Source: Chiloscyllium plagiosum (Eukaryota). From it: 50,406 nucleotides of DNA. The stretch lies in NCBI RefSeq assembly GCF_004010195.1, contig NC_057756.1:10595165-10645570 (forward strand), given 5' to 3'. A program made the translations under genes and the position numbers. The notes under the pieces are model-generated. The model made no database searches, was not told the origin of the DNA, and saw only the letters and a list, made by a program, of their open reading frames with translations. Shown here one piece after another: positions 11,506 through 41,137 of this stretch. Each line of letters begins with the position of its first letter. Position 1 is the stretch's first letter.

Positions 11506-11674
11506 TCCCTACCTTTTATCTTAACCTGCTGGACAAACTTTCCTCATTCCTGAAGAAGGGCTTATGCCCGAAACGTCAATTCTCCTGTTCCCTGGATGCT
11601 GCCTGACCTGCTGCGCTTTTCCAGCAACACATTTTCAACTCTGATCTCCAGCATCTGCAGACCTCACTTTCTCC
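11506..11674 (+). mobile_element. Penelope-like element terminal-repeat fragment with hammerhead core
   Basis: CCTGAAGAAGGGCTTATGCCCGAAACGTC...GATGCTGCCTGACCTGCTGCGCTTTTCCAGC; same family as copies at 14391, 16799, 17836 and 41014. Boundaries approximate. Confidence 0.8.
11550..11577 (+). ncRNA. Minimal hammerhead ribozyme core (PLE-associated)
   Basis: CUGAAGA-A-GGGC-UUAU-GCCC-GAAA-CG-UC: conserved core, 4-bp helix II, palindromic ACGU in place of helix III. Confidence 0.75.
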
Positions 11675-12498
11675 TGATACATCTCTCAACCCCATTCTCC
11701 CCTGGCTCATCTTTACAATCAAGAACATATCTATCTCCATCCTCAGTGACCTGGCCTCCACAGCCTTCTGTGGCAGTGAATCCCGTAGATTCACCACTCT
11801 CTGGCTGAAGACGTTTCTCCTTCTCTCCATTCTAAAGGGTCTTCCCTTTACTCTCAGGCTGTGCCCTTAGGCCCTCGTCTCTCCCGCCAATGGAAACACC
11901 TTCCCAAAATCCACTGTGTCCAGGCCGTTGGCTATTCTGTAGGCTTCAATTAGATCCCTCACATCCTTCTAAACTCAATGGAGTTTAGACCCAGACTCCT
12001 CAAACGTTCCTAATATGTTAAGCCTATCATTCCTGGGATCATTCCCGTGAACCTTCTCCGGACCCGCTCCGGGATCAGGATATCCATCCTGCGATATGGG
12101 ACCCAAAATTATTTGCAATACTCCAAATGTGGTCTGACCAGAGCCTTATAGAAGTACATCCCTGCTATTATATTCCAGCCCTTGCGAAATGAGTGCCAAC
12201 GTTGTATTTGCCTTTCTGACTACTGACTCAACCTGCAAGTTTACCTTGAGAGAACCCTGGCGTAGAACTCCCAAGTCACTTTGCACTTCAGATTTCTGAA
12301 TTTTTCCTCCATTTAGAATATAGTCCATGGCTGTATTCCTCCGAACCAAGTGCATGACCCCACACTTTACTGCGTTGTACTCCATTACTATTGCAGTATC
12401 AGTGTTACCGGAGGTATATTTTTACATTTGACTTGTATTTCTGTACTATTTATGTGTTTTACGGAGGAGGCGTGGCTTTAGATTAAATTTTCCATCTT

Positions 12499-13168
12499 AG
12501 AGTCATAAGAGACATACAGCATCGAAACAGACCCTTCAGTCCAACCCGTCCATGCCGACCAGATATCCCAACCCAATCTAGTCCCACCTGCCAGCACCCG
12601 GCCCATATCCCTCCAAACCCTTCCTATTCATATACCCATCCAAATGNNNNNNNNNNNNNNNNNNNNNNNNNNNNNNNNNNNNNNNNNNNNNNNNNNNNNN
12701 NNNNNNNNNNNNNNNNNNNNNNNNNNNNNNNNNNNNNNNNNNNNNNNNNNNNNNNNNNNNNNNNNNNNNNNNNNNNNNNNNNNNNNNNNNNNNNNNNNNN
12801 NNNNNNNNNNNNNNNNNNNNNNNNNNNNNNNNNNNNNNNNNNNNNNNNNNNNNNNNNNNNNNNNNNNNNNNNNNNNNNNNNNNNNNNNNNNNNNNNNNNN
12901 NNNNNNNNNNNNNNNNNNNNNNNNNNNNNNNNNNNNNNNNNNNNNNNNNNNNNNNNNNNNTGCACTCCAAGGTCTCTTTGTTCAGCAACACTCCCTAGGA
13001 CCTTACCATTAAGTGTATAAGTCCTGCTAAGATTTGCTTTCCAAAATGCAGCACCTCACATTTATCTGAATTAAACTCCATCTGCCACTTCTCAGCCCAT
13101 TGGCCCATCTGGTCCAGATCCTGTTGTAATCTGAGGTAACCATCTTCGCTGTCCACTACACCTCCAAT
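12499..13168 (-). mobile_element. CR1/HER1 LINE 3' fragment spanning an N gap
   Basis: Minus strand encodes IGGVVDSEDGYLRLQQDLDQMGQWAEKWQMEFNSDKCEVLHF and HLDGYMNRKGLEGYGP, followed by the 3' UTR. Confidence 0.9.
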
Positions 13169-13289
13169 TACATCCTGTGAAATGTTTGGATTTTAACGAG
13201 GTTCTCCATCTTTTGAGGTGACACGTTCAGTGTATTTGGAGGGAGAAAGGGCGAAGGAGAAGTCTGTTGCCCACTGACAGGAGTCACGG

Positions 13290-13426
13290 GGATGGCACGG
13301 TGGCTCAGTGCTTAGCGCCAGGGACCCGGGTTTGATTCCAGCCGCTGGGGCGACTGTCTGTGTGGAGTTTGCACATTTTCCTCGGGCCTGCGTTGGTTTC
13401 CTCCGGGTCTCCAGTTCACTCCAAAC
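13290..13426 (+). mobile_element. HE1 SINE head (tRNA-like region plus V-domain) leading directly into the 52-bp array
   Basis: GGATGGCACGGTGGCTCAGTG...GGGTTTGATTCC...GTCTGTGTGGAGTTTGCACATT...GGTTTCCTCCGGG; small deletion after the A box relative to other copies in the window. Confidence 0.88.
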
Positions 13427-14390
13427 GTTATGGAGGTTACGGTGGATTGGCCATGCTAAATTACCCATAGTGCCCAGGGATGTGCAGGTTACGGTGGATT
13501 AGCCATGCTAAATTACCCATAGTGCCCAGGGATGTGCAGGTTAGGGTGGATTGGCCATGGTAAATTACCCATAGTGCCCAGGGATGTGCAGGTTACAGTG
13601 GATTGGCCATGGTAAATTACCCATAGTGCCCAGGGATGTGCAGGTTAGGGTGGATTGGCTATGGTAAATTCCCCATAGTGCCCAGGGATGTGCAGGTTAG
13701 GGTGGATTGGCCATGCTAAATTACCCATAGTGCCCAGGGATGTGCAGGTTAGGGTGGATTGGCCATGGTAAATTACTCATAGTGCCCAGGGATGTGCAGG
13801 TTAGGGTGGATTGGCCATGCTAAATTACCCATAGTGCCCAGGGATGTGCAGGTTAGGGTGGATTGGCCATGGTAAATTACTCACAGTGCTCAGGGATGTG
13901 CAGGTTAGGGTGGATTGGCTATGGTAAATTACTCATAGTGCCCAGGGATGTGCAGGTTAGGGTGGATTGGCCATGGTAAATTACCCATAGTGCCCAGGGA
14001 TGTGCAGGTTAGGGTGGATTGGCAATGGTAAATTACTCATAGTGCCCAGGGATGTGCAGGTTAGGGTGGATTGGCCATGGTAAATTACTCATAGTGCCCA
14101 GGGATGTGCAGGTTATGGTGGATTGGCCATGCTAAATTACCCATTGTATCCAGGATGTGCCAGTTAGGGTGGATTGACTATGCTAAATGGCCCATAGTGC
14201 CAATGGATGTGCAGGTTAGGGTGGATTGGCCATGCTAAATTACCCATAATGCCAATGGATGTGCTGGTTAGGGTGGATTGGCCATGCAAATTTACCCATA
14301 GTGCACTGGTATGTGCAGGTTAAGGTGGATTGACCATGCAAAATTACCCATAGTGCACCGGTATGTGCGGATTAGGGTGGATTGACCATG

Positions 14391-14484
14391 GCTGGAAATG
14401 TGTTGCTGGAAAAGCGCAGCAGGTCAGGCAGCATCCAGGGAACAGGAGAATCGACGTTTCGGGCATAAGCCCTTCCTCAGGAAA
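14391..14484 (-). mobile_element. 94-bp PLE terminal-repeat insertion in the satellite, 7-bp TSD, hammerhead core at 14453-14480
   Basis: GACCATG duplicated at 14384-14390 and 14485-14491; minus strand reads CTGAGGA-A-GGGC-TTAT-GCCC-GAAA-CG-TC. Confidence 0.88.
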
Positions 14485-16798
14485 GACCATGCTAAATTGA
14501 ACCATAGTGTCCAGAGATTTGCAGGTTCGTGTGGATTGGCCATGCTAAATTACCCGTAGTGCCCAGGGATGTGCCAGTGCGGGTGGATTGCCCATGCTAA
14601 TTTGTCCTGGAGTACCCAGGGGTGTGGAGGTTTGGGTGGATTGGCCTTGCTAAATTACCTGTCGTGCTCAGGATGCACAGTTTTGGGTGTGCAGACCATG
14701 TTAAATTGCCCATAGTGTCCAGGGATGTGCAGGTTACGGTGGATTGGCCATGTTAAATTACCTGTAGTGCCCAGAATGCGCAGTTTACGGTATATTGTCC
14801 ATGCTAAATTACCCATAGTGCCCAGGGACGTGCAGGTTCGGATGTATTGCCCATGCTAATTTGTCCCAGAATGCTGAGCGATGTGCAGCTTCAGGTGCAT
14901 TTGGCCATGCTAAATTGTCCCACAGTGCCTAGGGATGTGGGGGTTAGGGGGAATTGGCCATGCTAAATTAGCCACAATGCCCAAGGATGTGCATGTTAGG
15001 ATGGATTGACCATGCTAAATTTTCCTATAGTACACTGGTATGTGCAGGTTAGCGTGGATTGGCCATGTTAAATTGTTCCATAGTGCCCAGAGCTGTGCAA
15101 GTTAGGTTGGATTGGCTGTGCTTATTTGACCCATAGTGCCTAGGGATGTGGTGGGTAGGTGGGGAATTGGCTGTGCTGAATTAGCCACAATGCCCAGGGA
15201 TGTGCAGGTTAGGGTGGGATTGGCCATGCTAAATTACCCATAGTGCCCAGGAATGTGCAGGTTAATGTGGAATAGCCCTGCAATATTAGCCATACCATCC
15301 AGCGATGTGCATGTTAGGGTGGATTGGCCATGCTAAATTACACATAGTGCCCAGCGATGTGCATGTTAGGGTGGATTGGCCATGCTAAATTACCCATAGT
15401 GCCCAGCGATGTGCATGTTAGGGTGGATTGGCCATGCTAAATTACCCATGATTCCCCGGATGCGCAGGTTACAGTGTATTGGCCATGCTAAATTACCCAT
15501 AATGCCCAGCGATGTGCAGGTTAGTGTGGATTGGCTGTTCTAAATTGTGCCATAGTGCCCAGGGTTGTGGAGGTTAGCGGGGAATTGGCTGTGCTAAGTT
15601 AGCCACAGTCCCACAGTGCTCAGGATGTGCAGGTTCGGGTGAATTTGCCATGCCAATTTAGCCGTAGTGCCTTGGGATGTTCAGGTTAGGGTGGATTGGC
15701 CAAGCAAAATTGTCCCATAATGCACAGGAATATATAGGTTAGGGTGGATTGGCCGTGCTGAATTACACCACAGTGCCCAGGGATGTGCAGGTCAGGGTGG
15801 ATTAGCCATGCTAATTTAACCATTGTGCCCATGGATATGCTGGGTAGGTGAATTGACCATGCTAAATTGTTGCATAGTGTGCAGGGATATGCAGGCTCGG
15901 GTAGATTGGCCATGCTAAATTGTCCCACAGTGCCCAGGGATGTGCATGTTTGGATGGACAGGCCATGCAAAATTGTCCCACAGTGCCCAGGGATGTGCAG
16001 GTTAGGGTTGATCGACGCTGCTAAATTACCCCAGTGCCCAGGGATGTGCACATTCTGATGGATTGGCCATGCTAAATTGTCCCATAGTGCCCAGGGACGA
16101 GCCGTGTTCGGTGGATTGACCATGCTAAATTACCCATACTTTCAAAGGATGTGCAGGTTTGGGTGGATTGGCCATGCTAAGTTACCCGTAGTGCCCAGGG
16201 ATGTGCAGGTTAGGGTGAATTCGCTGTGCTAAATTCCCCATAGTGCTCAGGGATAACTCTGTTAGGGTGGATTGGCCTTCCTAATTTGCCCATTGTCCAT
16301 AGGGATGTGCGTGTTCTGGTGATTTGCCCATGCTAATTTGTCCCTTTGTGACCAGAGGTGTGCAGGTTTGGGTGTTTTGGCCATACTAAAATGTCCCACA
16401 GTGCACAGGGATGTGCAGTTTCGGGTGGATTGGCCATACTAAATTACCCATAGTGCCTAGGGTTGTGCAGGTTTGGGTGGATTGGCCATTCTAAATTACC
16501 CAAAGTGCCACGAGATGTGCAGGTTCTGGTGGATTGACCTTGCTATATTGTCCTGTTGTGTCCAGGGTTGTGCAGCTTTGGGTGGATTTGCCATGCGAAA
16601 TTTCACATAGTGCCCAGGGATGTGCAGGTTATGGTGGATTGGCCTTGCAGAATTACCCATAGTGCCCAGGGATGTGGACGTTGGGGTGGATAGGCCATGC
16701 TCAATTAGGTGCACAGCTCAGGGTTGTGCAGGTTAGGCCATGCCAGATTTTCCCATACTGCCCAGGGATGTGCCGGTTAGGGTGAATTGGCCAAGGTA

Positions 16799-17641
16799 AA
16801 AACAATGACTGCAGATGCTGGAAACCAGATTCTGGATTACAGTGGTGCTGGAAAAACACAGCAGTTCAGGCAGCATCTGAGGAGCAGGAAAATCGACGTT
16901 TCCGGCAAAAGCCCTTCATCAGGAATAAAGGCAGAGAGCCTGAAGGGTGGAGAGAAAAGCTAGAGGATGGTGGGGGTGGGGATAGAGTAGCATAGAGTAC
17001 AATAGGTCAGTGGGGGAGGAGATGAAGGTGATAGGTCAGGGAGGAGAGGGTGNNNNNNNNNNNNNNNNNNNNNNNNNNNNNNNNNNNNNNNNNNNNNNNN
17101 NNNNNNNNNNNNNNNNNNNNNNNNNNNNNNNNNNNNNNNNNNNNNNNNNNNNNNNNNNNNNNNNNNNNNNNNNNNNNNNNNNNNNNNNNNNNNNNNNNNN
17201 NNNNNNNNNNNNNNNNNNNNNNNNNNNNNNNNNNNNNNNNNNNNNNNNNNNNNNNNNNNNNNNNNNNNNNNNNNNNNNNNNNNNNNNNNNNNNNNNNNNN
17301 NNNNNNNNNNNNNNNNNNNNNNNNNNNNNNNNNNNNNNNNNNNNNNNNNNNNNNNNNNNNNNNNNNNNNNNACCAGGTCGTCACGGAGGGAATGGTCTTT
17401 GCGGAAGGCGGAAAGGGGTGGGGAGGGAAATATATTCCTGGTGGTGGGGTCAGGTTGGAGGTGGCGGAAATGTCAGCAGATGATTTGGTTTATGCGAAGG
17501 TTGGTAGGGTGGAAGGTGAGCACCAGGGGCGTTCTGTCCTTGTTACAGTTGGAGGGGTGGGGTCTGAGGGCGGAAGTGCGGGATGTGGACGAGATGTGTT
17601 GGAGGGCATCTTTAACCACGTGGGAAGGGAAATAGCGGTCT
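16799..17641 (-). mobile_element. 5'-truncated Penelope-like element (Neptune-like) inserted in the satellite; N gap inside; hammerhead core at 16895-16922
   Basis: Minus strand of 17372-17640 translates DRYFPSHVVKDAL...KDRTPLVLTFHPTNLRINQIIC*HFRHLQPDPTTRNIFPSPPLSAFRKDHSLRDDLV, resembling the PLE RT thumb/linker; terminal repeat has CTGATGA-A-GGGC-TTTT-GCCG-GAAA-CG-TC. Confidence 0.85.
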
Positions 17642-17835
17642 ATGCCCAGGGATGTGCAGGTTAGGGTGGACTGGCCATGCTAAATTACCCATTTTGTCCC
17701 AGGATGTGGAGGTTCGGGTGGATTAGCCCTGCTAACTTAGCCATCGTGCCCATGGATGTGCCGGTTCGGTGGATTGGCCATGCTAAATTGTCGCATAATG
17801 TGCAGGTTCGGATAGATTGGCTATGTTAAATCGTC

Positions 17836-18158
17836 GCTGAAAATGTGTTGCTGGAAAAGCACAGCAGGTCAGGCAGCATCCAAGGAGCAGGAGAATCGAC
17901 GTTTCGGGCATAAGCCCTTCTTCAGGAATCGGCTGAAGAGCTTCTGTGCAGAGGAGATGACCTGGGGTGTGCAGTGAGAGAGGGACTCACTGAAATCCTT
18001 GTAGTGGGAGGAAGAAAGCTTCTTCAAGGAAGGCATCCTTGCAAGAGGATTCGCAGTAGATTAAAATCTTCGAGGACAAAGTGAGGACTGCAGATGCTGG
18101 AGATCAGAGCTGAAAATGTGTTGCTGGAAAAGCACAGCAGGTCAGGCAGCATCCAAGG
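17836..18158 (-). mobile_element. 323-bp PLE-derived insertion with 50-bp terminal direct repeats, 7-bp TSD, hammerhead core at 17898-17925
   Basis: TSD AATCGTC at 17829-17835 and 18159-18165; identical 50-mers at 17836-17885 and 18109-18158. Confidence 0.88.
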
Positions 18159-21100
18159 AATCGTCCCACAGTGTGTAGGGATGTGCAGGTTAGGGTGAAT
18201 TGGCCATGCTAAATTAGGCATACGGCCCAGGAATGTGCAGGTTAGGGTGAATTGGCCATGCTAAATAACTTACAGTTCCCAGGGATGTGCAGGTTATCGT
18301 AGGGTGGCCGTGCTGAATTACCCATAGTGCCCAGGAATGTGCATTTTAAGGTAGAATGGCTGTGCTAAATTGTCGCATAGTGCCCAGGATGTGCAGGTTA
18401 GGGTGGACTGGCCGTGCTAAATTACACATGGTGTCCAATGATGTGCAGGGTAGGCTGGATTGGCAATGCAAAATTGCCTGTCGTGTCCAGGGATGCGCTG
18501 GTTAGGGTGGATTTGCCATGCTAAATTACCCTTAGTGCCCAGGGATGTACAGGTTCGGGTGGATTGGCCGTGCTAAATTACCCTTAGTGCCCAGAGATGT
18601 ACAGGTTCGGGTGGATTGGCTGTGCTAAATTAGCCATAGTGCTCAGAGATGTGCAGGTTTGGAGTGGATTGGCCAGGCTAAATTACCCATAGTGTCCAAA
18701 GATGTGCAGGGTAGGAGGGGTTATCCATGCTCAATTGTCACATAGTGCCCAGGGATGTGCCGGTAGGGTGGAGTAGCCATTCACAATTACCCGTTACATC
18801 CAGCGATGTGCAGGTTAGGGTGGATTGGCCATGCCAAATTGCTCATAGTGCCCTCGGATGTACAGGTTCAAGTGGATTGGCCATGCTAAATTACCCATAG
18901 TGCTCAGGAATGTGCAGGTTTGGATGGATTGACCATGTTAAACTATCCGTAGTATCCAAGGATGACCCAGTTAGGGTGGATTGGCCATGCTAAATTGCCC
19001 ACAATGCTCAGGGATGTGCATGTTTGGGTGGATTGGGAATGCTCAATTATTGCATAGTGCCCAGGGATGTGTAGGTTAGGGTGAATTGGCCAGGCGAACT
19101 TAGCCACAGTGCCCAAGATTTGCAGGCTTGGGTGGATTAGCCCTGCTAGATTAGCCATCGTCCCCAGGGATGTGCAGGTTAGGGTAGATTGGCCATGCTA
19201 AATTAGCCATAGTACCCAGGGATGTGCAGGTTAGGGTGGATGCTCCATGCTAATTTGACCCATAGTACCCAGGGATGTGCAGGTTAGGGTGGGTTGGCCT
19301 TGCTAAATTACCCAGTGCCCAGGGATTGCAGGATAGGATGGATTAGCCCTGCTAATATAGCCATAGTGCCAAGGGATGTGCCAGTTAGGTTGATTGACCC
19401 TGCTAAATTGTCCCACAGTGCATTGGGATGTGCAAGTTAGGGTGGATTGGCCATGCTAAATTGTCCCATAGTGCCCAGCGCTGTGCAGGTTATCGTAGAT
19501 TGGCCATGCTGAGTTACCCACAGTTCCCAAGGATGTGTAGGTTAGGGTGAACTGGCCATGCTAAAGTTTCCCATAGTGCCCAGTGTTGTACAGCTTAGGG
19601 AGGATTGGTCATTCTAAATTTTCCCATAATGCCCAGGGATGTGCAGGTTGGGTGAATTTGTCATGCTAAATTACCCAGTGCCCAGGGATGAACAGGATAG
19701 GGTGGATTAGCCCTATTAATTTTACCCAGTGCCCAGGGATGTACAGGATAGGGTGGATTAGCCCTATTAATTTTACCATAGTGCCCAGGGATATGCAGGT
19801 TAGGGTAGATTGGCTGTGCTAATGTACCCACAGTGTCTAGGGATGCACAGGTTCAGTGGATTGGCCATGGTAAATTACACAGTGTTCAGGGATATGCAGG
19901 TTAGGGTGGATTGGCCTTGCTAAATTATCCATACTGTGCAGGGATATACAAGATACCATGGATTTACAATACTAAATTGCCCATAGTGCCCAGGGATGTG
20001 CAAGTTAGGGTGGATTGCCGTGCTAAATTGTCCCATAGTGCCCAGCGCTGTGCAGGTTATCGTAGATTGGCCATGCTGAGTTACCCACAGTTCCCAAGGA
20101 TGTGCAGGTTAGGGTGAACTGGCCATGCTAAAGTTTCCCATATTGCCCAGTGGTGTACAGGTTAGGGAGGATTGGTCATTCTACATTTTCCCATAATCCC
20201 CAGGAATGTGCAGGTTGGGTGAATTGGCCATGCTAAATTACCCAGTGCCCAGAGATGTACAGGATAGGGTGGATTAGCCCTATTAATTTTACCATAGTGC
20301 CCATGGATGTGCTGGTTAGGTGGATTGGCCCTGCTAAATTGTCCCAGAGCACGTGGGGATGCACAGGTTTGGTGAATTGGCCATGCCAAATTACCCATAG
20401 TGCTCAGGGATGTGCAGGTTAGGGTGCATTGGCTGTGCTAAATTATCCATAGTGTCCAGGGATGCACAAGATAGTGTAGATTGACAAACTAAATTGTCCA
20501 TAGTGCCCAGGGATGCGCAGGTTAGTGTGAATGTCCCATGCTAATTTGACCCATAGTGCTCAGGGATATGCAGGTTTGGGTGGATTAGCCCTGCTAAATT
20601 ACCCATAGTGCCCAGGGATGTGCAGGTTCAGATGGACTGGCCCTGCTAAATCATCCATAGTGCCCAGGGATGTGCAGGTTCAGATGGACTGGCGATGCTA
20701 AATTGTCTCATAGTGTGTAGAGAATCCAATTTCAGGTGGATTGGCCATGCTTAATTACCCATAGTGCCCAAGGATATTCAGGTTAGGGTAGATTGGCAAT
20801 GCTAAATTAGCCATAGTACCCAGGGATGTGCAGGTTATGGTGGATTGGCCATGCTAAATGACCCATAGTGTCCAGGAATGTGCGTGTTTGGGTGGATTGA
20901 CCATGCTAAATTTTCACACAGTGCCTGGGATGTGCAGGTTAGGTTGAACTGGCCATGTTAAATTTTCCCATAGTGCTCAGAGATGTGCAGGTTTGGAGCG
21001 GATTGGCCGGGCTAAACTACCCATAGTGTCCAAAGATGTGTAGGGTAGGAGGGGTTGGTCATGTTCAATTGTCACATAATACACAGAGATGTGCAGGTAG

Positions 21101-24100
21101 GGTGGAGTGGCCATTCACAATTGCCTGTAACATCCAGCGATGTGCAGGTTAGGGTGGATTGGCTGTGCAAATTTGTCCCATTTGCCCAAGGATGTACAGG
21201 TTAGGGTGGATTGGCCATGCTAAATTACCCATAATGCCCAGGGATGTGCAGGTTAGGGTGGATTGGCCGTGCTAAATTACCCATAGTGCCCAGCGATGTG
21301 CAGGTTAGGGTGGATTGGCCGTGCTAAATTAACCATAGTGCCCAGGAATGTGCAGGTTAGGGTGGATTGGCCGTGCTCTTTTGTCCCATTTGCCCAGGGA
21401 TGTCCAGCTGAGGGTGGATTGGCCATTATAACTTATCCGTGGTGTCGAAGGATGACCCAGTTAGGGTGAATTGGCCATGCTAAATTGCCCATAGTGCTCA
21501 GGGATGTGCATGCTAGGGTAGATTGGACATGCTAAATTGTTCTGTTGTACCCAGGGATGTGCAGGTTAGGGTGTATTGGCCATGCTCAATTGTCGCATCG
21601 TGCCCAGGATGTGCAGGTTAGGGTGGATTGGCCATGCTAAATTACCCATAGTGCTCAGGGATGTGCAGGATAGGGTGGATTAGCCATGCTAAATTACCCA
21701 TAGTGTCCAGGGATGTACAGGATAGGGTGGATTAGCCCTGCTAATATAGCCATAGTGCCAAGGGATGTACCAGTTAGGTGGATTGGCCCTGCTAAATTGT
21801 CCCACAGCACGTAGGGATGTACAGGTTAGGGTGGATTGGCCATGCTCAATTGTCGCATAGTGCCCAGGGATGTGCAGGTTAGGGTGGATTGGCCATGCTC
21901 AATTGTCGCATAGTGCCCAGGGATGTGCAGGTTAGGGTGGATTGGCCGTGCTAAATTGTCCCATAGTGTCTGTGGATGTGCAGGTTAGGGTGGATTAGCC
22001 GTGCTAAATTACCCATAGTGTCCAGGGATGTACAGGATAGGGAGGATTGGCCATGCTAAATTACCCATAGTGTCCAGGGATGTACAGGATAGGGTGGATT
22101 AGCCATGCTAAATTACCCATAGTGTCCAGGGATGTACAGGATAGGGTGGATTAGCCCTGCTAATATAGCCATAGTGCCAAGGGATGTACCAGTTAGGTGG
22201 ATTGGCCCTGCTAAATTGTCCCACAGCACGTAGGGATGTACAGGTTAGGGTGGATTGGCCATGCTCAATTGTCGCATAGTGCCCAGGGATGTGCAGGTTA
22301 GGGTGGATTGGCCAGGTTAACTTAGCCATAGTGACCAGGGATTTGCAGGCTTTGATGGATTAGCCATCGTCCCCAGGGATGTGCAGGTTAAGGTGGAAGC
22401 CCCATGTTAAATTGTCCCATAGTGCGTAGGGAGTCCAGTTTTGGGTGGATTGGCCATGCTTAATTACCCATAGTTCCCAGGGATAACCAGGCTAGGGTGG
22501 ATTGGCCTTGATAAATTTTCAGTGCCCAAGGATGTGTAGATTAGGGTGAACTGGCCATGCTAAAGATTCCCATACTGCCCAGTGATGTGCAAGGTAGGGT
22601 GGATTGGCCATGCTAAATTACCGATCGTGTCCAGGGATGTGTGCAGGTTAGGGTGGATTGGCTGTGCTAAATTATCCAGTGCCCAAGGATGTACAGGATA
22701 GGATGGATTAGCCCTGCTAATATAGCCATAGTGCCAAGGGATGTACCAGTTAGGTGGATTGGCCCTGCTAAATTGTCCCACAGCACATAGGGATGTACAG
22801 GTTAGGGTGGATTGGCCATGCTAAATTACCCATTCTGTCCAGGGATGTGCAGGATAGGGTGGGTTGGCTTTGCTAAATTACCCAGTGCCCAGGGATTACA
22901 GGATAGGATGGATTTACCTTGCTAATATAGCCATAGTGCCCAGGGATGTAAAAGTTAGGTTGATTGACCCTGCTAAATTGTCCCACAGTGCATTGGGATG
23001 TGCAGGTTAGGGTGGATTGGCCGTGCTAAATTGTCCATAGTGCCCAGCACTGTGCAGGTTAGGGTGGATTGGCCATGCTAAATTGTCCCACAGTGCATAG
23101 GGATGTGCAGGTTAGGGTGGATTGGCCATGCTAAATGGTCCCATAGTGTCCAGGGGTGTGCAGGTTATCGTATATTGGCCATGCTGAATTATCCTTAGTG
23201 CCCAGGGATGTACAGGATAGAGTGGATTAGCCCTACTAATTTAGCCAAAGTGCCCATGGATGTGCTGGTTAGGTGGATTGACCCTGCTAAATTGTCCCAC
23301 AGTGCATAGGGATGTGCAGGTTAGGATGGATTGGCCAGGCTAAATTACCCATAGTGCCCAGTGATGTGAATGTTAGTGTGGATTGGCCATGCTAAATTAC
23401 CCATAGTGCCCAGTGATGTACAGGTTAGGGTGGATTTGCAATGCTAAATTACCCTTAGTGCCAAGGAATGTGCAGGTGAGGATGGATTGATTGGCTGTAC
23501 TAAATTACACATAGTGCACAAATATGTGTAGGTTAGCATGGTTTGGCCACACATAATTGCCCATAGTGTCCAGGAATGTGCAGGTTAGGGAGGATTGCCA
23601 TGCTAAATTACCCATAGTGCCCAGGGATTTATATGATAGGGTGGATTGGCCGTGTTAAATTACCCATAGTGCCCAGGGATTTCCATGATAGGGTGGATTG
23701 GCCATGTTAAATTACCAATAGTATCCAGTAATATGCAGGTTTGGATGCTTTGCCCATGTTAATTTGTCCCATAGTGCCCAGGGATGTGCAGATTTGGGTG
23801 GATTGGCCGTGCTAAATTGTCCCACAGTACGCACGGATGAGCAGGTTAGGGTGGATTGGCCAAGCTAAATTACCCATTTCATCCAGAGATTCACAGGTTT
23901 GGGTGGATTGGCCGTGCTAACTTACCCATAGTTCCCAGGGATGTGCAGGTTAATGTAGTTCGGCTATGCTAAATTACCCATATTGCCTAGGGATGTAAAG
24001 ATTCCGGTGGATTCACCATGCCAAATTGTCTCACAATGCCCAGGAATGTGCAGGTTTGGAGTGGATTAGCTGTGCTAAATTACCCATAATGTCGAGGGAT

Positions 24101-27100
24101 GTGCAGGTTAGGATGGATTGGCCATGCTAAATTGCCACCTCGTGCTCAGGGATGTGCAGTGTCGGGTGGATTGGCCGTGCTAAATTACCCATAGTTCACA
24201 GGATGGCCAGGTTATGGTGGATTGGCCCTGCAAAATTACCCATAGTGCCCAAGTATATGCAGGTTGGCGTGGTTTGGCCATACTAAATTGCCCGTTGTGT
24301 CCAGGGATGAGCAAGTTAGAGTGGATGCCCCATGGTAATTTGACACATATTGCCCAGGGATGTGCAAATTACTGTGGACTGGCCATGCAAAATTAGCCAT
24401 CGTGCCCATGGATGTGCATGCAATGGGTAGATTGGCCATGTTAAATTGTTCCTTAGTGTGCAGGGATGTGCTAAATTACCCATACTGTCCAGTGGATGTG
24501 CAGGTTAGGGTGGATTGGCCATAATAAATTGCCAGTTGTGTCCAGGGATGAGCAGAATAAGGTGGATGTGGATGCCCCATGGTAATTTGACTCATAGTGC
24601 CCAGGGATGTGCATGTTTGGGTAGATCGGCCATGTTAAATTGTTCCTTCGTACCCAAAGAGATGTGCAGGTTAGGGTGGATTGGCCACACTAAATTGTCC
24701 CATAGTGCCCAGGGGTATGCAGATTAGGGTGGATTGGCCATACTAAATTGTCCCATACTGCCCTGTTTATGCAGGTTAGGGTGGATTGGCCATACTAACT
24801 TGTCCCATCGTGTCCAAGGAGGGGCAAGGTATGGTGGATTGGCTAGGCTAAATAAGGAATAGTACCCAGGGAAGTGCAGGTTAGGGTGGATTGGCAATGC
24901 TAAGGTACCCACAGTGCCCAGGGATGTGCAGGTTAGGGTGGATTGGCAATGCTAACGTACCCATAGTGCCCAGGAATGAACAGGTTACGATGGATTGGCC
25001 ATGCTAAATTACCCATCGTGCCCATGAATGTGCAGGTTACAATGGATTGGCCGTGCTAAATTATCCCATAGTGCCCAGGAAGTGCAGGTTACAATGGATT
25101 GGCCGTGCTAAATTATCCCATAGTGTGCAGGGATGTGCAGGTTACAATGGATTGGCCATGCTAAATTATCCCATATGCCCAGGAATGTGCAGGTTACCAT
25201 GGATTGGCTGTGCTAAATTGTCCCATAGTGCACAGGGATGTGCAAGTTCTGGTGGATTGGCCATGCTAAATTACCCATAGTGTATAGGAATGTGCAAGTT
25301 ACGATGGATTGGCCGTGCTAAATTGTGCAGATTAGGGTGGATTAACCATGCTAAATTTTTCTATATTGTCCAGGGATGTGCAGGTTAAGATAGATTAGCC
25401 CTGCTAAATTAGCTGTAGTGCCCAGACCTGTGCAGGTTCGGGTGGATTGGCAATGATCAATTACCCATAGTGCCCAGGGATGTGCAGGTTAGGGTGGATT
25501 GGCCATGCTAAATTGTCCCATAGTGCCCAGGGATGTGCAGGCTAGGGTGGATTGACCATGCTAAATTACCCATAGTGCCCAGTGATGTGTAAATTAGGAT
25601 GGATTGGCCATGCTAAATTGTCGGATACTGCCCACAGATTTGCAAGATCTGGTGGATTGTCCATGCTAAATTAGACCTAGTGCTCAGATATGTGGAGATT
25701 AGGGAGGATTGGCCATGTTAAGTTTTTCCACAATTCCCAGGGATGTGCAAGGTACGGTGGATTGGCCATGCTAATTTACCCATTGTGTCCAAGGATGTGC
25801 GGGTTAGGGTGGATTGGCCATGCTAAATTACCCATTGTGTCCAAGGATGTGCAGGTTAGGGTGGTTTGCCCATGTTAATTTGTCCCACAGTTCCCAGGAA
25901 TGTGCAGCTGAGGGTATATCTGCCATGCTAAATTCACCGTAGCACGTAGGGACGTGCAGGTTAGGGTGGATAGGCCATGCTAAATTACCCATAGTGTCCA
26001 GGGATATGTAGGTTAGAGTGGATTGGCCATGCTAAATTACCCATAGTGTCCAGGGATATGCAGGTTAGGGTGGATAGGCCATGCTAAATTACCCATAGTG
26101 CCCAGGGATGTGCATGTTAGGGTGGATTGGCAATGCTAACGTACCCTTGTGCCCAGTGACGTGCAGGTTGCGATGGATTGGCTGTGCTAAATTACCCATA
26201 GTGTACAGGGATGTGCACATTAGGGTGAATTGGCCATACTAAATTGTTGAATAGTGCCCAGCAATGTGTCAATTTAGTGTGGATTAGCCGTGCTAAATAA
26301 CCCATTGTGTCCAGGGATTTGCAAGTTAGGATTGACTGGCCATGCTAAATTACCCATAGGACTCAGGGATGTGTAGGTCAGGTAGATTGGCCACGCTGTA
26401 TTACCCATACTGCCCAGGGATTTGCAAGACCTGGTGGATTGCCCATGCTAAGTTAGACATAGTGCTCAGAAATGTGAAGGTTAGGGAGAATTGGCCATGC
26501 TAAATTTTCCCACAGTTCCCAGGGATGTGCAAGGTATGGTGGATTAGCTGTGCTAAATTACCCAAGGTGCCCAGGTATGTGCTGTTAGGGTGAATTGGCC
26601 ATGCTAAATTATCCCTAGTGCCCAAGGATCTGCAGGTTCGAGTGGATTGGCCATGCTAAATTGCCCATAGTGCCCAGGGATGTGCAGGTTATGGTGGATT
26701 GGCCATGCTAAATTACCCATAGTGCCCAGGGATGTGCAGGTTATGGTGGGTTGGCCATGCTAAATTATGCATTGTTCACAGTATGGACAGGTTATGGTAG
26801 ATTGGCATTGCAAAATTACCCATAGTGCACAAATATGTGCAGGTTAGCATATTAAATTGCCCATAGTGTCCAGGGATGAGCAGATTAGGGTGGATGTCCC
26901 ATGGTAATTTGACCCATACTGCCCCTGGGGTGAATATGTTTGGGTAGATTGGCCATGTTAAATTGTTCCTTCATCCCCAGAGTTGTGCAGATTAGGGTGG
27001 ATTGGCCATATTAAATTGTCCCACAGTGCCCAGGAATGTGCAGGTTAGGGTGGATTCGCCATGCTGCATTTTCCCACAGTGCCTAGGGATGTGCAGGTTA

Positions 27101-29330
27101 GGTTGAATTGGTCATGCTAAATTACACGCAGTACCCAGGGATGTACAGGTTCAAGTGGATTAGCCCTGCTAAATTATTCATTTTGTCCAGGGATGTGCAG
27201 GTTAGGGTGGATTAGCATTGCTATGTTACCCATACCGCCCAGCAATGTGCAGGTTAGAGTGGATTGGCCATGCCAAATTTCCCCTAGTGCCTAGGGATGT
27301 GCAGGTTAGGGTGGATTGGCTGTGCTAAATTACCCATGATGTGCGGGTTACGGTGGGTTGGCCATGCTAAATTACTCACAGTGCCCAGGGATGTACATGT
27401 TAGGGTGGATTGTCCATGCTAATTTGTCCCTTTTGCGCCCAGGGATGTGCAGTTTTGGCAATTTTGGCCATGCTAAATTACCCAGAGATGCGCAGGGTAG
27501 GGTGGATTGGCTATGCTTGTTTGTTCCTTAGTGCCCAGGAATGTGCAGGTTCAGGTGGATTGGCCATGCTAAATTACCCTTAGAACCCAGCGCTGTGCAG
27601 GTTAAGCTGGATTTGCTGTGGTAAATTGTCCCATCATGCCCAGAGATATGAAGGTTAGGATGGATTGGCCGTGCTGATTTAACCATAGTGCCCAGGGATC
27701 TACCGGTTAGGGTGGATTGGCCGTGCTACATTGTTTCATAGTGTCCAGGGACGTGCAGATTAGGGTGGATTGGCCATGCTAATTTGTCCCATTGTGTCCA
27801 ATGATGTGCAAGGTACAGTGGATTGGCCATTCTAAATTACCTATAATGTTCTGGATTGTGTAGCTTGGAGTGGATTGGCCATGCTAAATTGTCCCACAAT
27901 GCCCAGAAATGTGCAGGTTAGGGTGGATTGGTGATGCTAAATTACCTGTAGTGCCCAGGGATGTGCAGGTTTAGTTGGATTGGCCATGCTAAGTCACCAA
28001 TACTGCCCAAGGTGCGCAGGTTACGGTGTATTGGCTATGCAGAATTGTCCCATAGTGCCCAGAGATGTGCAGATTAGGATGGATTGGCCATGCTAAATTG
28101 ATCCATAGTGGTCAAGGATGTGCAGGTCACGGTGTATTGGCCATACTAAATTACCCATAGTGCTCAGTGGTGAGCAGCTTGGGTTGGATTGGCCATTCTA
28201 ATTTGACTCATAGTGCCCAAGGAAGTGCAGGTTAGTGAGGATTGGCCACGCTAAATTGTCCCTTTGTGCTCAGGGATGTGTATTTTAGGGTGAATTATCC
28301 GTGCTAAAATACGATAGTTTCTCGGGATGTGTAGGTGAGGGGGCATTGACCATGCTAAATTATCCATTGTGCCTAGCGATATCCGTATTAGGGTGGATGG
28401 ATGTTGCTAAATTGCCGATTATCAACAATGATGTGCAGCTTAGGGTGGATGCTCCATGCTAATTTGTCCCTTTGGTCCCAGGGATGTGCAGGTTAGGGTG
28501 TCTTGGCCATGCGAAACTGTCTCTCCGTGCCCAGGGATGCGCAGGTTAGGGTAGATTGGCTCTACCAAATTACCCATTGTGGCCAGGTGTGTGCAGGTTA
28601 GGGTGGATTGGCCATGGTAAATTATCCATACTGTGCAGGGATGTGCACATTAGGGTGGATTCGCCATGCTAAATTGTCCCATACTGTTAAGGGATGTGCA
28701 GGTGTGGGTGGATTGGACGTATTAAATTACCCATAGTGCCTGGGATGTGCAGGTGGGGATGGATTGGCCATGCTAAATTGTCGCATAGTGCCCAGGGTTA
28801 TGCAGTTCGTGTAGATTGGCCATACTAAATTGCCCATAGTGCCCAGGGATGTGCAGGTTAGCGTGGGTTGCCCATGCTAATTTGTTCCATAGTGCCCCAG
28901 AATGTGCAGTTGTAGGTGTATCAGCTGTGCCAAATTCTCCATAGTGCCCAGGGATGTGCGGGTTAGGGTTGCATACTTTTCCCACAGTGCCCAGGGATGT
29001 GCCCAGGTTTGGGTAGATTGGCCATGCTAAATAATCCATAGTGCCCAGCAATATCCCTGTTCGGGTGGATGGGCATTGCTAAATTGGCGATTAGCAACAG
29101 TGATGTGCAGCTTAGCACTCTATGCTATTTTGTCCCTTTGTTCCCAGGGATGTGCAAGTTAGGATGGATTGCCCATGCGAAATTGGGCCAGAGTGCCCAT
29201 GGATATGCAGGTTAGGATAGATTAGCTAAACTGCCACATAGTGCCCAGGGACGTGCAGTTTCGGGTAGATTGGCCATGCCAAATTACCCATAGTTCTCTA
29301 GGATGTGCAGGTTAATTGGGTTAGCCATGG

Positions 29331-32858: not shown

Positions 32859-33154
32859 ACACTCTGGGAGCAGAGGAATATGCTGGAAGTCTTGCACTGG
32901 ACGGGTGAAGGAGCTGGGAAAGCTCACTTTGAGTATAGTCCAATGGGACGTTCCAATTTGGTGTTCACCACAGGCTGGTTATAGTCGGGAAAGCGTTGAT
33001 AACACTGAGGGGAGGAGAGCTTCCTCTTGGAATGCAATTTAGTTTTTATCGAGGAGCTCTTTATACGACAGGAAACCGCATCTGATATCCCTGGCCTCCT
33101 GGAAGTATCAGAGGGAGACCAGCAAAGATCTTCAGGACAGACATGCCTGCATAG

Positions 33155-33649
33155 GGCACTATCCACAACTCCACCATCCTTAGTGTTGTCTGCAAATTTA
33201 CTAACCCACCCTTCTACACCCTCATCCAGGTCGTTTATAAAAATGGCAAACAGCAGTGGCCCCAAAACCGATCCTTGTGGTCCACCACTAGTAACTGAAC
33301 TCCAAGATGAACATTTCTCATCAAACACCACCCTCTGTCTTTTTTCAGCTAGCCAATTTCTGATCCAAACCGCTAAATCACCCTCAATCCCATGCCATAG
33401 CCTATCCTGGGGAACCTTATCGAACATCTTACTGAAATCCATATACACCACACCAACCGGTTTTCCCTCATCTACCTGTTTGGTCACCTTCTCAAAGAAC
33501 TCAATAAGGTTTGTGAGGCACGGCCTACCCTTCACAAAACCGAGCAGACTATCCCTAATCAGCTTAGTCCTTTCCAGATGATTATAAATCCTTCTCTTAT
33601 CACCTTTCCCAACACTTTACCCACAACCGAAGTCAGGCTCACTGGCTTA
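33155..33649 (-). mobile_element. CR1 RT core fragment (downstream part of the CR1 split by R2)
   Basis: [10 protein letters not shown]...[12 protein letters not shown]...[19 protein letters not shown]...SKFADNTK; begins with [10 protein letters not shown]. Confidence 0.92.
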
Positions 33650-34185: not shown

Positions 34186-34650
34186 TTTCCTGTCGTTTTT
34201 GTACCGCACTGTGACAACCGCAATCTTCTGATTTTTTTTTTTAAAATATGAGACTTATTTATGTTTGGTTTTTGTTTTGGTTTGGTGCTGACTGCTTCTC
34301 GCGGAAGCATGTCTCCAATTCCTCTTTTGAGACAGGACAAGTGGAAGAGGTCGGCGCCCCCATGATCTCGCGAGCTGGTTGGCGCCGGTTAGTTTTGTAG
34401 AGCTGCTGTGTCGCTCTATTTCCTGTCGTTTTTGTACTGCACTGTGACAACCGCAATCTTCTGATTTTTTTTTTAAAATATGAGACTTATTTATGTTTGG
34501 TTTTTGTTTTGTTTTGGTGCTGACTGCTTCTCGCGGAAACATGTCTCCAATTCCTCTTTTGAGACAGGACAAGTGGAAGAGGTCGGCGCCCCCATGATCT
34601 CGCGAGCTGGTTGGCGCCGGTTAGTTTTGTAGAGCTGCTGTGTCGCTCTA
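34186..34650. repeat. Near-perfect tandem duplication of about 233 bp inside the R2 remnant
   Basis: 34186-34418 is repeated at 34419-34650 with few differences. Confidence 0.95.
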
Positions 34651-35496
34651 CGTGCTGCCCACCGTATTTTGTCTCCGGTATTGCTACCGGTCCTCCTTGC
34701 CTCTTTCGGCCCAATCTTGTTGAGGCCTCTTGCGTTTGCTCTGTCCTTTCCTACTATTCAATAGCAGGTCAGTAATACTTCCCACAAGGCCCACCCCCAA
34801 GGGCAAGGGTGTCCAGGTCATTCCTCGCCATCAGGAGCTCCTCCGCTTGTGTCAGCTGGTCACCTACGTCCCGACGTTTCGGGATCGAAGCCGATGTTCT
34901 TCAGCCGGCTCTTTGGCGCAGGTTTTGATCGTTGGGATTTTCCTGGACGCTGCCTCTGATTCGTGCCAGTCTACACCTGTCATTGACTTGTTGGTGGTCG
35001 GCACCTCCGTCAGGAGCCCTGCGTTTGTCTGAGATTTGTTTCAGAGTGTTTGTTTTTAAGGATGCTGGCGATGGATTTGTTTATAAAATCTGCATCCTGC
35101 GAATCTCCCTTCCACGTTCCCTCGGGAGTGCCACCCCCTCCTGTGACCATACGCGGATCACTTCTCCCTGGTTTGCCAAAGACTTGGGGTGCAAGGTTTG
35201 AGGCATTTTTCGTTTTTGTAGAATCGGCTGTCTGTGCCTCTCGTGTTGACCGAGGCCCGACTGAGTAGAAAGCTGTTAGTCACACGCGCTGCGTGCAAAG
35301 TCCCCTGTTGGGGGCTTATGTTTGTGCCTTTGCTTTTTGGATCGTGGTAGGAGATTGCATGATATTCTCCCGCTTTGTCGCAGCCTGAATATTTTGTTTG
35401 AATGCTCTTTACTCCGTGCACTTTAGTCAAATGAACAGGCTCACTGTGGGGAAGAGGGTGTCAGAGTCCTTGCAGGACAGCCCATCAATGGGGTAT

Positions 35497-37124: not shown

Positions 37125-37392
37125 GGGAGACGCGCGGGAATTCCGAGAGGTCTGGCATTCAAGCCGCAACTCCCGTCAATAAGCGCATCGCTTTGGACCC
37201 CGTTTACCAGCCTCTGAGCGAAAGAACTGGAGATGATATCCCCCCCCCACCTTAAGAGCCGAAGACACACCAGTAGAAAGCGGGCTACGCCACCAGCGCT
37301 TCAGCGGGGGCTCACTGATGATGTTACCGAGGATGGTGACGAAACGTCTGAACACGAGCCTTCCAGCACAGTGAGCCAACTCGCAACCTGAG
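37125..37392 (+). mobile_element. Penelope-like element 3' fragment of a distinct family (GIY-YIG C-terminus plus terminal repeat)
   Basis: Frameshift-corrected AREFREVWHSSRNS.NKRIALDPVYQPL resembles the Penelope/Poseidon endonuclease end; followed by a hammerhead core. Confidence 0.7.
37315..37348 (+). ncRNA. Minimal hammerhead ribozyme with canonical core
   Basis: UCA-CUGAUGA-U-GUUACC-GAGGAU-GGUGAC-GAAA-CG-UC-UGA: 6-bp helix II, 3-bp helix I, palindromic ACGU. Confidence 0.78.
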
Positions 37393-38833: not shown

Positions 38834-38835
38834 TA

Positions 38836-39068: not shown

Positions 39069-39378
39069 ATTAGATTGGGCTCCCTACAGTGTGGAAACAG
39101 GCCCTTTGGCCCAACAAGTCCACACTGACCCTCCACAGAGAAACCCACCCCCCTATATTTACCCTTGACTAATGTACCTAACACTATGGACAATTTAGCA
39201 TGGCCAATCCACCCTAACCTGCACATCTTTGGTGGGAGGAAACCGGAGCACCCGGAGGAAACCCACACATACAAAGGGGAGGGGAATGTGCAAACTCCAC
39301 ACAGACAGTCGCCCGAGGCTGGAATCGAACCCGGGTCCCTGGCGCCGTGAGGCAGCAGTGCTAACCACTGAGCCGCCC
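39069..39378 (-). mobile_element. HE1 V-SINE
   Basis: Reverse-complement head, V-domain and tail. Confidence 0.9.
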
Positions 39379-39631
39379 ATATTAAGTATGGTCTACATCC
39401 CATCTCCAAACCGAATTCCATTGACAAACTGGTCTGACAGCACGCAGGTGACTGTAGCAGGTCATTGTGCACTAGACTTACAAGTCACTCCTGATCCCTT
39501 CATTACTACATACAAGAGATTTGGTCTGGCCTGAATGTTAGCTGAAAAATCTCACCTCGATCCAGACCCGATCAGTTAAATACTTCACCTTTGGTATATG
39601 TTGGATGAGACACTTTGGAAAATGCTAACTT

Positions 39632-39770
39632 GGCGCGGTGGCTCAGTGGTTAACACTGCTGCCTCATGGCGCTGGCAACCCGGGTTCGATTCCACTCTCA
39701 GGCGGGTGTGTGTGTGTGCGCGCGTGCTAGGTGCTCCCACAAAGATATGCAGGTTAGATGGATTAGCCAG
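39632..39770 (+). mobile_element. Partial HE1 SINE with V-domain partly replaced by (GT)n(GC)n
   Basis: GGCGCGGTGGCTCAGTGGTTAAC...GGTTCGATTCC then GTGTGTGTGTGTGCGCGCG. Confidence 0.75.
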
Positions 39771-40481
39771 GATGTAAGGGGAAAGTCCTGGGGGCTGTTG
39801 CTGAGCAAGGAGATCTTGGAGTACAGGTTCATAGCTTCTTGAAAGCAGAGTTGGAGGTAGATAGGAGAGTGAAGAAGGCTTTTAGTATGCTTTCCTTTAT
39901 TGGTCAGAGTATGGGAGGTCACGTTGCAGCTGTACAGGACATTGGTTAGGCCACTTTTGGAATATGGTTTGCAATTCTGGTCTCCCTCCTGTCAGAAGGA
40001 TGTTGCAAAACTTGAAAGGGTTCAGAAAAGATTTACAAAGATATTGCCAGGGTTGGAGGGTTTGAGCTACAGGGAGAGGCTGAATAGGCTTGGTCTGTTT
40101 TCCCTAGCGTGTCGGAGGCTGAGGGGTGACCTTATAGAATTATGAGGGGCATGGATAGGGTAAATAGACAAAGTCTTTCCCCCTGGGGTGGCGGAGTCCA
40201 GAACTAGAGGGCGTAGGTTTTAGGTGAGCGGGGAAAGATTTAAAAAGGGACCTGAGGGGTAAGTTTTTCACACAGAAGGTGGTACGTGTATGGAATAAGC
40301 TGCCAGAGGAAGTGGTGGAAGCTGGTACAATTGCAACATTTAAGAAGCATTTAGATGGGGATATGAATAGGAAGGGTTTGGAGGGATATGGGCCGGTGCT
40401 GGCAGGTGGGACTAGATTGGGTTGGGATATCTGGACGGGTTGGACCGAAGGGTCTGTTTCCACGCTGAAACAATTCTATGC
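39771..40481 (+). mobile_element. CR1/HER1 3' portion
   Basis: ORFs 39900-40145 and 40279-40524 give [17 protein letters not shown] and VRVWNKLPEEVVEAGT; 3' UTR follows. Confidence 0.92.
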
Positions 40482-41013
40482 AATCAGGAAAAATCCAATA
40501 AGATTGAATCTTTCTGATTTGTGAAATGTTTATTCGTGAAACAGAACCTCACGAAAGGCTGTGAACGTTGTTCTGGAACCAAACACATTCCCTTTGGTTC
40601 CTCTGTTCCCCTGACCCTTGCATTGGGCAGAGCATCACTGAACCATGAGATTCACGGAATAGCAGTCCCTGGGCTGCCTCTGGTAGCCCATTCAATCGGA
40701 GGCACATTTCCCAGTCTCGTCATAGAGCTGTACAGCACAGAAACAGACCTTTCAGTCCAACCCGTGAGTCCAATGTTTAAGAAAAAAAAATCACATTTCA
40801 TCTTGCTGAGGATTATAATCCGCAGGCTTGAACACGTTACGTCAATTCAGATCACTATTTCAATGAGCTCACGTTTCTTTTCATAATTACCACATCGTTG
40901 AACTTTACGTCAACTGCAGCTTTGACAGTGATTAGCTTCCATTTGCTGGCACTTGAGGTGGAGTACACCTACACGTCGCATTCTCCTCGAAGTTGGCCGC
41001 AAAGAATAAATGG

Positions 41014-41137
41014 GCTGAGGAAGGGCTTATGCCCGAAACGTCAATTCTCCTGTTCCTTGGATGCTGCCTGACCTGCTGCGCCTTTCCAGCAACACATTTC
41101 CAGCTCTGATCTCCAGCATCTGCAGTTCTCGCTTTCT
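41014..41137 (+). mobile_element. 124-bp PLE terminal-repeat insertion, 17-bp TSD, hammerhead core at 41015-41042
   Basis: CCGCAAAGAATAAATGG at 40997-41013 and 41138-41154; core CTGAGGA-A-GGGC-TTAT-GCCC-GAAA-CG-TC. Confidence 0.9.

What the first reader, a model, noticed from the sequence alone, without database searches (positions are those of the whole stretch)
11550..41042. One PLE family carries a hammerhead core that varies mainly at the free position 7
Seen: five related cores at 11550-11577 (+), 14453-14480 (-), 16895-16922 (-), 17898-17925 (-) and 41015-41042 (+) read CUGA[N]GA-A-GGGC-UU[A/U]U-GCCC-GAAA-CG-UC, with N = A, G, U, A, G. One helix II mismatch occurs at the 16895 copy. Known: position 7 is the unconstrained core base; PLEs carry minimal hammerheads; a palindromic ACGU in place of helix III implies dimer-dependent cleavage; an extra A after A9 is tolerated in a natural viroid hammerhead. 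Inference: the ribozyme was under selection in the active elements.
Basis: partly seen in the sequence, partly recalled or inferred. Interest (0 to 1): 0.7.

Follow-up and report, generated by a model that had tools for sequence, protein, structure and literature searches.

The report
Penelope minimal hammerhead, known kind
The five motifs are real copies of a known miniature hammerhead-ribozyme motif at the end of a Penelope-like jumping gene that has over 87,000 copies in this genome; the copies are decaying like ordinary dead repeats, the motif was likely kept by selection in the parent elements, and the copies' left ends suggest the element's RNA likely starts, capped, at the ribozyme's first base and was likely copied mostly uncut.

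Summary
All five cores are there letter for letter. They are the minimal type I hammerhead of Penelope-like elements (PLEs) described by Cervera and de la Pena 2014, lying in the terminal repeat of an RT + GIY-YIG element with 87,506 exact-core copies. The headline needs correcting. The 16895 copy belongs to another subfamily. Position 7 differs between subfamilies (A or U) but hardly within one: G7 is 291 against 36,007 copies, only twice the 144-146 seen at A9 and A6. Genomic copies vary most at CpG sites, core included (149 of 1038 against 25 of 1730). Selection in parent elements is still supported, by better evidence: lineage changes avoid core and stem, and sister families show compensatory pairs. 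Beyond the finding: 84 of 307 copies begin within two bases of ATTC, four bases before the core, and G precedes ATTC in 66 of 100 junctions (26% expected), which fits a capped start and uncut templates. Cleavage is untested. The scan noted this start-site reading before, in this genome and others.

The parts
11505..11674 (+). Subfamily A pLTR copy with tail; TTTATC at 11515-11520, ATTC (helix I 5' arm, likely RNA start) at 11546-11549, core at 11550-11577; position 1.1 is A (CpG decay), which breaks the first helix I pair
14391..14484 (-). Short subfamily A copy, G7, core 14453-14480, begins 4 bases before C3, no tail; 7-bp target duplication 14384-14390 / 14485-14491, inside the 52-bp satellite
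16795..17640 (-). Subfamily B 5'-truncated copy: broken coding remnant between RT and endonuclease (17374-17472 matches L143 protein 25 of 33), N gap 17053-17371, core 16895-16922 with U7 and one helix II mismatch, tail
17836..18158 (-). One insertion of two joined pieces (target duplication 17829-17835 / 18159-18165): a truncated pLTR + tail + about 150 bases of ORF start, then an extra G at 17930, ATTC and the core 17898-17925
41014..41137 (+). 124-bp subfamily A copy, G7, core 41015-41042, tail; lacks the helix I 5' arm; 17-bp target duplication 40997-41013 / 41138-41154
37315..37348 (+).
48586..48739 (.).

Best explanation
These are minimal hammerhead motifs in the terminal repeat of an RT + GIY-YIG Penelope-like retrotransposon, present as decaying genomic copies; the fold was likely kept by selection in the parent elements, likely forms the first 36 bases of a capped transcript, and would cut after GUC only as a dimer or with protein help, likely too rarely to shape most insertions. 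Steps: (1, shown) the motif sits 3' of the ORF in the pLTR. (2, inferred) A TATA-like box 31 bases upstream drives a capped RNA from the A of ATTC. (3, inferred from shown 3' ends) The element's RT primes internally at one of two sites 35 bases apart, about 90 and 125 bases into that RNA, runs off the cap adding one base, and leaves the short copies and inverted pairs. (4, inferred) A full transcript holds two motifs, one per pLTR, whose ACGU palindromes could pair to form helix III. (5, shown) After insertion the copies mutate at CpG sites of the core as freely as elsewhere.
For: Architecture equals the published min-HHR: extra base between 9 and 10.1 in 157 of 160 descriptor hits, CG or GC at 15.2-16.2 in 112 of 160 and CpG-decay forms CA or TG in 38 more. 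RVT_1 (E 7.9e-5, under cut-off) and GIY-YIG (over cut-off) in frames upstream of the core. Subfamily majorities differ at N7, two loop bases, 1.3, 1.5 and four flank bases, and at none of the invariant core or helix II stem positions; common within-group variants touch one stem position only. Sister families: helix I TCA/TGA 5, CCA/TGG 4, GCA/TGC 7 of 19 copies; AGCU in 18 of 18 family 2 hits (the pattern asked for it); helix I pairs C-G, U-A in family 1, C-G, A-U, C-G in family 2, A-U, C-G in family 3. 5' ends: 84 of 307 within two bases of ATTC, 24 in the next 4 bases, 8 in the 30 bases beyond (22, 9 and 2 of 99 in position-blind stretches). G before ATTC in 66 of the first 100 listed junctions against 26% expected. 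TTTATC at -35 from C3 in 26 of 122 copies, TATAAA at -36 to -40 in family 2. 3' ends at two clusters, 64 and 41 of 121, as in the anole PLE (PMC11167929), where uncut RNA was the main substrate and the ribozyme needed the protein.
Against: No cleavage and no RNA start were observed directly. Helix I is weak in the two largest subfamilies (U.U at 2.3-1.3 in 82 of 122) and the dimer hammerhead is not the lowest-energy dimer for any of six units folded. The extra G is clearly outside the target duplication in only 1-2 of the 10 non-inverted G junctions inspected; in 4 or more the G lies inside the duplication, and in some inverted pairs it belongs to the other arm. There is a 2-3 fold local excess of apparent 5' ends at the cut site (10 of 307; 468 against 103 and 273 raw counts), so some templates may have been cut. 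No intact ORF was read: RT and endonuclease come from different loci.
Confidence: 0.72

Rival explanations
1. The ribozyme cuts efficiently in vivo and the cut, perhaps circularised, RNA is the normal template for new copies (the model proposed by Cervera and de la Pena).
For: Strong structural conservation across families. Small excess of 5' ends at the cut site: 10 of 307 against 0-4 at neighbouring positions; genome counts scale to roughly 1,250 against 400-700 (my scaling by the allowed letters).
Against: Of 30 such junctions inspected, 21 are inversion junctions (14 flagged by script, 7 by eye), 3 are deletions inside a core and 6 are plain 5' ends. Ends at ATTC outnumber ends at the cut about eight to one. 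Copies made from circles would not be pinned at either place, so rare full-length copies could still use this route.
Confidence: 0.12
2. The conserved bases are kept mainly as a core promoter (initiator plus downstream element); the ribozyme in subfamilies A and B is weak or vestigial.
For: The motif lies at +5 to +32 of the inferred start, and ACGT falls at +28 to +31; Drosophila Penelope has a downstream promoter element RGACGTGY (PMC2377424, passages). Helix I carries a U.U mismatch in A and B.
Against: Families 2 and 3 keep the same catalytic core at other distances from their TATA box (-36 to -40 and -47 to -53), with AGCU in place of ACGU and with compensatory helix I pairs; a promoter element would not require base pairing.
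Confidence: 0.12
3. The short hammerhead-led copies are a separate non-autonomous element (SINE- or retrozyme-like) that spreads by itself.
For: Many copies are 90-130 bp with their own target duplications; animal retrozymes are proposed PLE derivatives (bioRxiv 10.64898/2026.07.22.740005, passages).
Against: Short and long copies share the same subfamily marks and the same two 3' ends; 72 of 307 copies run on 85 bases or more upstream of the anchor, and several carry ORF remnants; copies that start at ATTC lack the TATA-like box; no tandem arrays of the unit in the window.
Confidence: 0.04

Closest known systems
[quoted passage not shown]
   Same: Type I, no helix III, palindromic 15.2-16.2, one base between 9 and 10.1, G10.1-C11.1, mostly solo copies, several families per genome, found in fish Xena, Poseidon and Neptune elements.
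   Different: Helix II is 4 bp in the focal family (7-8 bp in Schistosoma); helix I has a U.U mismatch in two subfamilies; 87,506 exact copies against 4,000-9,000 reported for coelacanth and Xenopus; cartilaginous fish are not named in the parts read (supplements not seen).
PAc, Poseidon element of Anolis carolinensis, Frangieh et al. 2024 (PMC11167929; parts 1-2 of 4 read)
   Same: Two internal RT start sites that define a 30-40 bp tail; hammerhead in the pLTR; uncut RNA is the dominant substrate; no reads at the cut site.
   Different: In PAc the ORF begins inside the ribozyme; here the ORF start lies after the tail and the ribozyme is at the inferred RNA 5' end; this element has the CX4CxxC linker that Poseidon lacks.
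Drosophila virilis Penelope promoter (PMC2377424, passages) and Adineta Penelope pLTRs (PMC3846280, passages)
   Same: Start site inside the pLTR; TATA- and Inr-like motifs; inverted 5'-truncated partner, tail and target duplications.
   Different: In D. virilis a 46-base exon and an intron precede helix I; here no intron is apparent and helix I begins at the inferred start.
Dimer-cleaving small hammerheads of PLEs, Lunse, Weinberg and Breaker (seen only as a citation and a summary sentence in PMC6765202; paper not held)
   Same: Short palindromic helix III, cleavage as dimers.
   Different: Could not check whether shark examples were included.

Membership tests
PLE minimal hammerhead (min-HHR) | Core CUGANGA...GAAA..UH without helix III | tested here: met
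PLE minimal hammerhead (min-HHR) | One base between A9 and 10.1; G10.1-C11.1 pair | tested here: met
   offset of one in 157 of 160 hits; G-C in all five window copies
PLE minimal hammerhead (min-HHR) | Palindromic 15.2-16.2 | tested here: met
   CG 99, GC 13, CpG-decay CA/TG 38 of 160
PLE minimal hammerhead (min-HHR) | Short helix I (4-5 bp in the source paper) | tested here: inconclusive
   3 of 4 pairs with a U.U mismatch in A and B, 4 of 4 in C, 3 bp in families 2 and 3
PLE minimal hammerhead (min-HHR) | Self-cleavage as a dimer after N17 | not testable with these tools
   needs in vitro assay; fold energies do not favour the active dimer
EN+ Penelope-like element | RT followed by C-terminal GIY-YIG endonuclease, pLTR downstream | tested here: met
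   RVT_1 in L108 (under cut-off) and GIY-YIG in L143 (over cut-off), both upstream of the core on its strand; window remnant matches L143
EN+ Penelope-like element | Single continuous ORF between two pLTRs | tested here: inconclusive
   L142 has pLTR end, ORF start and a second pLTR 3.7 kb on, but the middle reads N
EN+ Penelope-like element | Optional 30-40 bp tail, inverted 5'-truncated partner, target duplications | tested here: met
   two 3'-end clusters 35 bases apart; 137 of 307 copies flagged as inverted; duplications in 3 of 5 window copies
Neptune clade | CX2-5CxxC linker before the endonuclease (shared with Nematis; PMC8557442 passages) | tested here: met
   C-x4-C-x2-C read by eye in the L143 frame
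Neptune clade | RT groups with Neptune on a tree | not tested
   no reference set held; the Neptune label is provisional
Non-LTR retrozyme | Tandem non-coding units with canonical type I hammerhead | tested here: not met
   dispersed or inverted copies, no helix III, attached to ORF remnants
Rfam hammerhead families | Match to a covariance model | tested here: not met
   no hammerhead family at E <= 5 in the window

The most novel reading that the evidence does not exclude
The hammerhead is the first 36 bases of the capped element RNA, so its job is a switch, not genome processing: when the 3' pLTR copy (or the element protein) pairs with it, the cut removes the cap and a 32-base leader from full-length transcripts only, turning off translation or licensing circularisation, while uncut capped RNA yields the tens of thousands of short insertions. 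The shark-type genome then records start site, priming sites and cut frequency of a PLE in about 100,000 natural reaction products.
Probability: 0.25. Interest if true: 0.6.

Novelty: new member of a known kind. Interest (0 to 1): 0.3.

Why it matters
As found, little: minimal hammerheads in PLE repeats have been known since 2014, and the position-7 argument is weaker than it looked. What has some value is that the role of these ribozymes is still open (PMC8557442 says so), and this family offers a very large in vivo record agreeing with the one in vitro study: templates are mostly uncut. If the ribozyme really begins at the cap, one short construct and a CAGE library would test what the cut is for. 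Natural helix I variants (U.U in A and B, U-A in C) give a ready comparison.

Tried and rejected
Rfam scan found no hammerhead model; its MIR5062 hit (40.6 bits, gathering 140) is the inverted family 2 pair. A genome search with PF01541 gave one weak unrelated-looking match and no full element. No RNA holder was listed by the run search. Raw RNA reads of X20 (about 2 in 100 read) covered both strands, 94-95% ran on into unlike sequence, and showed no pile of starts at ATTC or at the cut; X21 laid 0 reads; contigs of X1 and X2 cannot show starts: no test of start or cleavage. An apparent peak of 5' ends at the cut site shrank on inspection to mostly inversion junctions. A first per-site tally included core-selected loci and inversion junctions and was replaced (329 copies; 184 reach the core's 5' side; 11 dropped by a junction filter; 173 counted). 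Some of the 40 flank-chosen stretches were placed so as to include known intact cores too, a slight bias towards intact cores. A 3' splice site at ATTC, as in D. virilis, was rejected: the element has no AG there and upstream flanks of short copies are unrelated. Literature: searches for hammerhead + Penelope-like (37 papers), Penelope + pLTR + transcription start + hammerhead (3), shark + Penelope + hammerhead ribozyme (1, irrelevant use of 'shark'), Penelope-like + Neptune + shark + genome (0) and Penelope-like / untemplated G / cap (no listed paper held the first two together) found no printed account of a capped start at a PLE hammerhead; the library lacks most subscription papers and Repbase, and the Lunse paper was not available.
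Full report
Observation. The five 28-base cores are present exactly as written, with N7 = A, G, U, A, G, loop TTAT or TTTT and a GCCG mismatch at 16895. They are far beyond chance: the pattern has 87,506 exact matches in the 3.56-Gb own genome and its reversed control none. The surrounding repeats look like those of a shark (recalled, from no call).

What it is. Frames upstream of the core, on its strand, match RVT_1 (E 7.9e-5, below the curated cut-off) and GIY-YIG (above it); the coding remnant in the window's 16895 copy is 25 of 33 identical to one of them. A C-x4-C-x2-C linker precedes the endonuclease (by eye), which PMC8557442 gives as a mark of Neptune and Nematis (passages). Copies end at two places 35 bases apart (64 and 41 of 121), the optional tail of PLEs; 137 of 307 are arms of inverted pairs; three window insertions have target duplications. 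So this is the pLTR of an endonuclease-bearing Penelope-like element. The motif matches each trait listed for the minimal hammerhead by Cervera and de la Pena: no helix III, a palindrome at 15.2-16.2, one base between 9 and 10.1 (157 of 160 descriptor hits, 0 hits in reversed sequence) and G10.1-C11.1.

One family, varying at position 7? Only in part. The copies fall into subfamilies A (A7, loop TTAT/TCAT), B (U7, loop TTTT) and C (A7, loop CTGT) plus older copies; 16895 is a B copy. Within A1, N7 differs in 4 of 73 copies, within B1 in 0 of 31. Genome-wide, the subfamily A 35-mer occurs 36,007 times with A7, 291 times with G7, 144 times with G at A9 and 146 times with G at A6. G7 is thus rare, and only twice the background at positions where the change should be harmful; several G7 hits come as both arms of an inverted pair, which points to a minor parent with G7. 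Two G7 copies among five is a local accident. Among 173 copies chosen by their flank or by position alone, 73 keep an intact core; CpG sites in or at the core (11.1, G12, 15.2, 16.2, 17, 1.1) differ in 149 of 1038 cells, the other invariant bases in 25 of 1730. Genomic copies therefore decay neutrally, catalytic G12 and the palindrome included.

Selection in parent elements. Subfamily majorities differ at N7, two loop bases, 1.3, 1.5 and four flank bases, and at no invariant core or helix II stem base; common variants within groups fall on N7, the loop and ten of fifteen 3' flank positions, and on one stem position in the mixed old group (my reading of the table). Across families in 1.2 Mb of fetched sequence, helix I is C-G, U-A in family 1, CAC/GTG or TAC/GTA in family 2, and TCA/TGA, CCA/TGG or GCA/TGC in family 3 (5, 4 and 7 of 19), and family 2 has AGCU for ACGU. 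These are few independent events, counted over related copies, but they are two-sided changes. Against a strong ribozyme: helix I has a U.U mismatch in 82 of 122 family 1 copies, the active dimer is not the lowest-energy dimer in any of six units folded, and three of the five window copies have further breaks in helix I or lack its 5' arm.

Where copies begin. Of 329 sampled copies, 307 have a readable 5' junction. 84 begin within two bases of the ATTC that precedes C3, 24 in the next four bases, only 8 in the 30 bases beyond; 86 begin inside the core and 10 at the predicted cut. The position-blind subset shows the same edge (22, 9 and 2 of 99). In the first 100 of 2,311 junctions where two non-element bases precede ATTC, the adjacent base is G in 66, A in 23, T in 11 (counted by eye), against 26% G expected. 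In 30 inspected, the G is clearly outside the target duplication in one or two, inside it in several (compatible with pairing of an added base to the target, but not proof), and sometimes part of an inverted arm. The window's 17898 copy shows such a G at 17930. A TTTATC box lies 31 bases before that A in long copies, family 2 has TATAAA about 30 bases before its own short-copy starts, and TCATTCC fits the initiator consensus (consensus recalled). I read this as a capped transcription start at the first base of helix I. It is an inference; RNA reads gave no test.

Is the RNA cut? Apparent 5' ends at position 1.1 number 468 in the genome, against 103 and 273 for the neighbouring positions under patterns of unequal breadth, with about 100,000 copies bearing the flank. 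Of 30 inspected, 21 are inversion junctions, 3 core deletions and 6 plain ends. A small excess remains, so rare use of cut RNA is not excluded, but most templates were not cut. This agrees with the anole PLE, where uncut RNA was the main substrate and the ribozyme needed the element's protein (PMC11167929).

Mechanism, committed. A pLTR promoter makes a capped RNA that opens with the hammerhead. The element protein primes inside the RNA at one of two sites; on the 5' repeat this gives 90-130 bp copies that run off the cap, on the 3' repeat long 5'-truncated copies. Two repeats in one transcript could pair their ACGU palindromes and cut after GUC, slowly or with protein help. Placement, 5' and 3' ends and neutral decay are shown; start site, cap, selection and cleavage are inferred or untested.

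Novelty. A new member of a known kind. I found no printed account of the capped start at the ribozyme in five searches of a library that lacks most subscription papers, and supplements of the 2014 paper were not seen. The scan's own notes hold the same start-site reading many times, in this genome and others; I had reached it before that look-up, and one note gave the lead to measure the TATA distance. Interest 0.3.

Noticed in passing
window 13434-29314: A 16-kb satellite of 52-bp units (about 305 copies) that resembles a stretch of the dispersed SINE-like repeat at 11299-11381 (61-62%); three of the five hammerhead copies are inserted in it.
   Followed up: no
window 1-10450: A 7-bp-unit satellite (ACACTGA-like, periods 7, 14, 21).
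   Followed up: no
window 17836-18158 (-): A single insertion made of two joined copies, the second starting with an extra G + ATTC and the first reaching about 150 bases into the ORF start; looks like a template jump that builds a partial tandem. L191 shows a similar join after about 125 bases of ORF start.
   Followed up: partly
window 34873-34904 (-): A CUGAAGA...GAAACGUC stretch with no convincing helix I or closing pair of helix II; no relatives looked for.
   Followed up: no
window 46546-46610 (+): A decayed core of an older related family with a different helix II.
   Followed up: no
window 49157-49860: C2H2 zinc-finger-like frame with HTGERPF linkers and 75- and 84-bp tandem units; naming by eye.
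   Followed up: no
window 11490-11680, run X20: RNA reads show more A>G and T>C places (11 and 6) than other changes, including A14 and A15.1 of the core in about 8% of reads; could be A-to-I editing of inverted pairs or copy differences in another species.
   Followed up: no
G000, one search list: About half of the first 100 matches read CGCG before ATTCTCC, which may be a recurring one-base loss at U16.1 or an inversion junction; not inspected.
   Followed up: no
window 34186-34650: A 232-bp direct duplication, 98% alike, inside a region with several open frames of unknown nature.
   Followed up: no
window 32924-33616 (-) and 45285-46013 (-): Broken LINE-type reverse transcriptase frames (family name not tested).
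   Followed up: no
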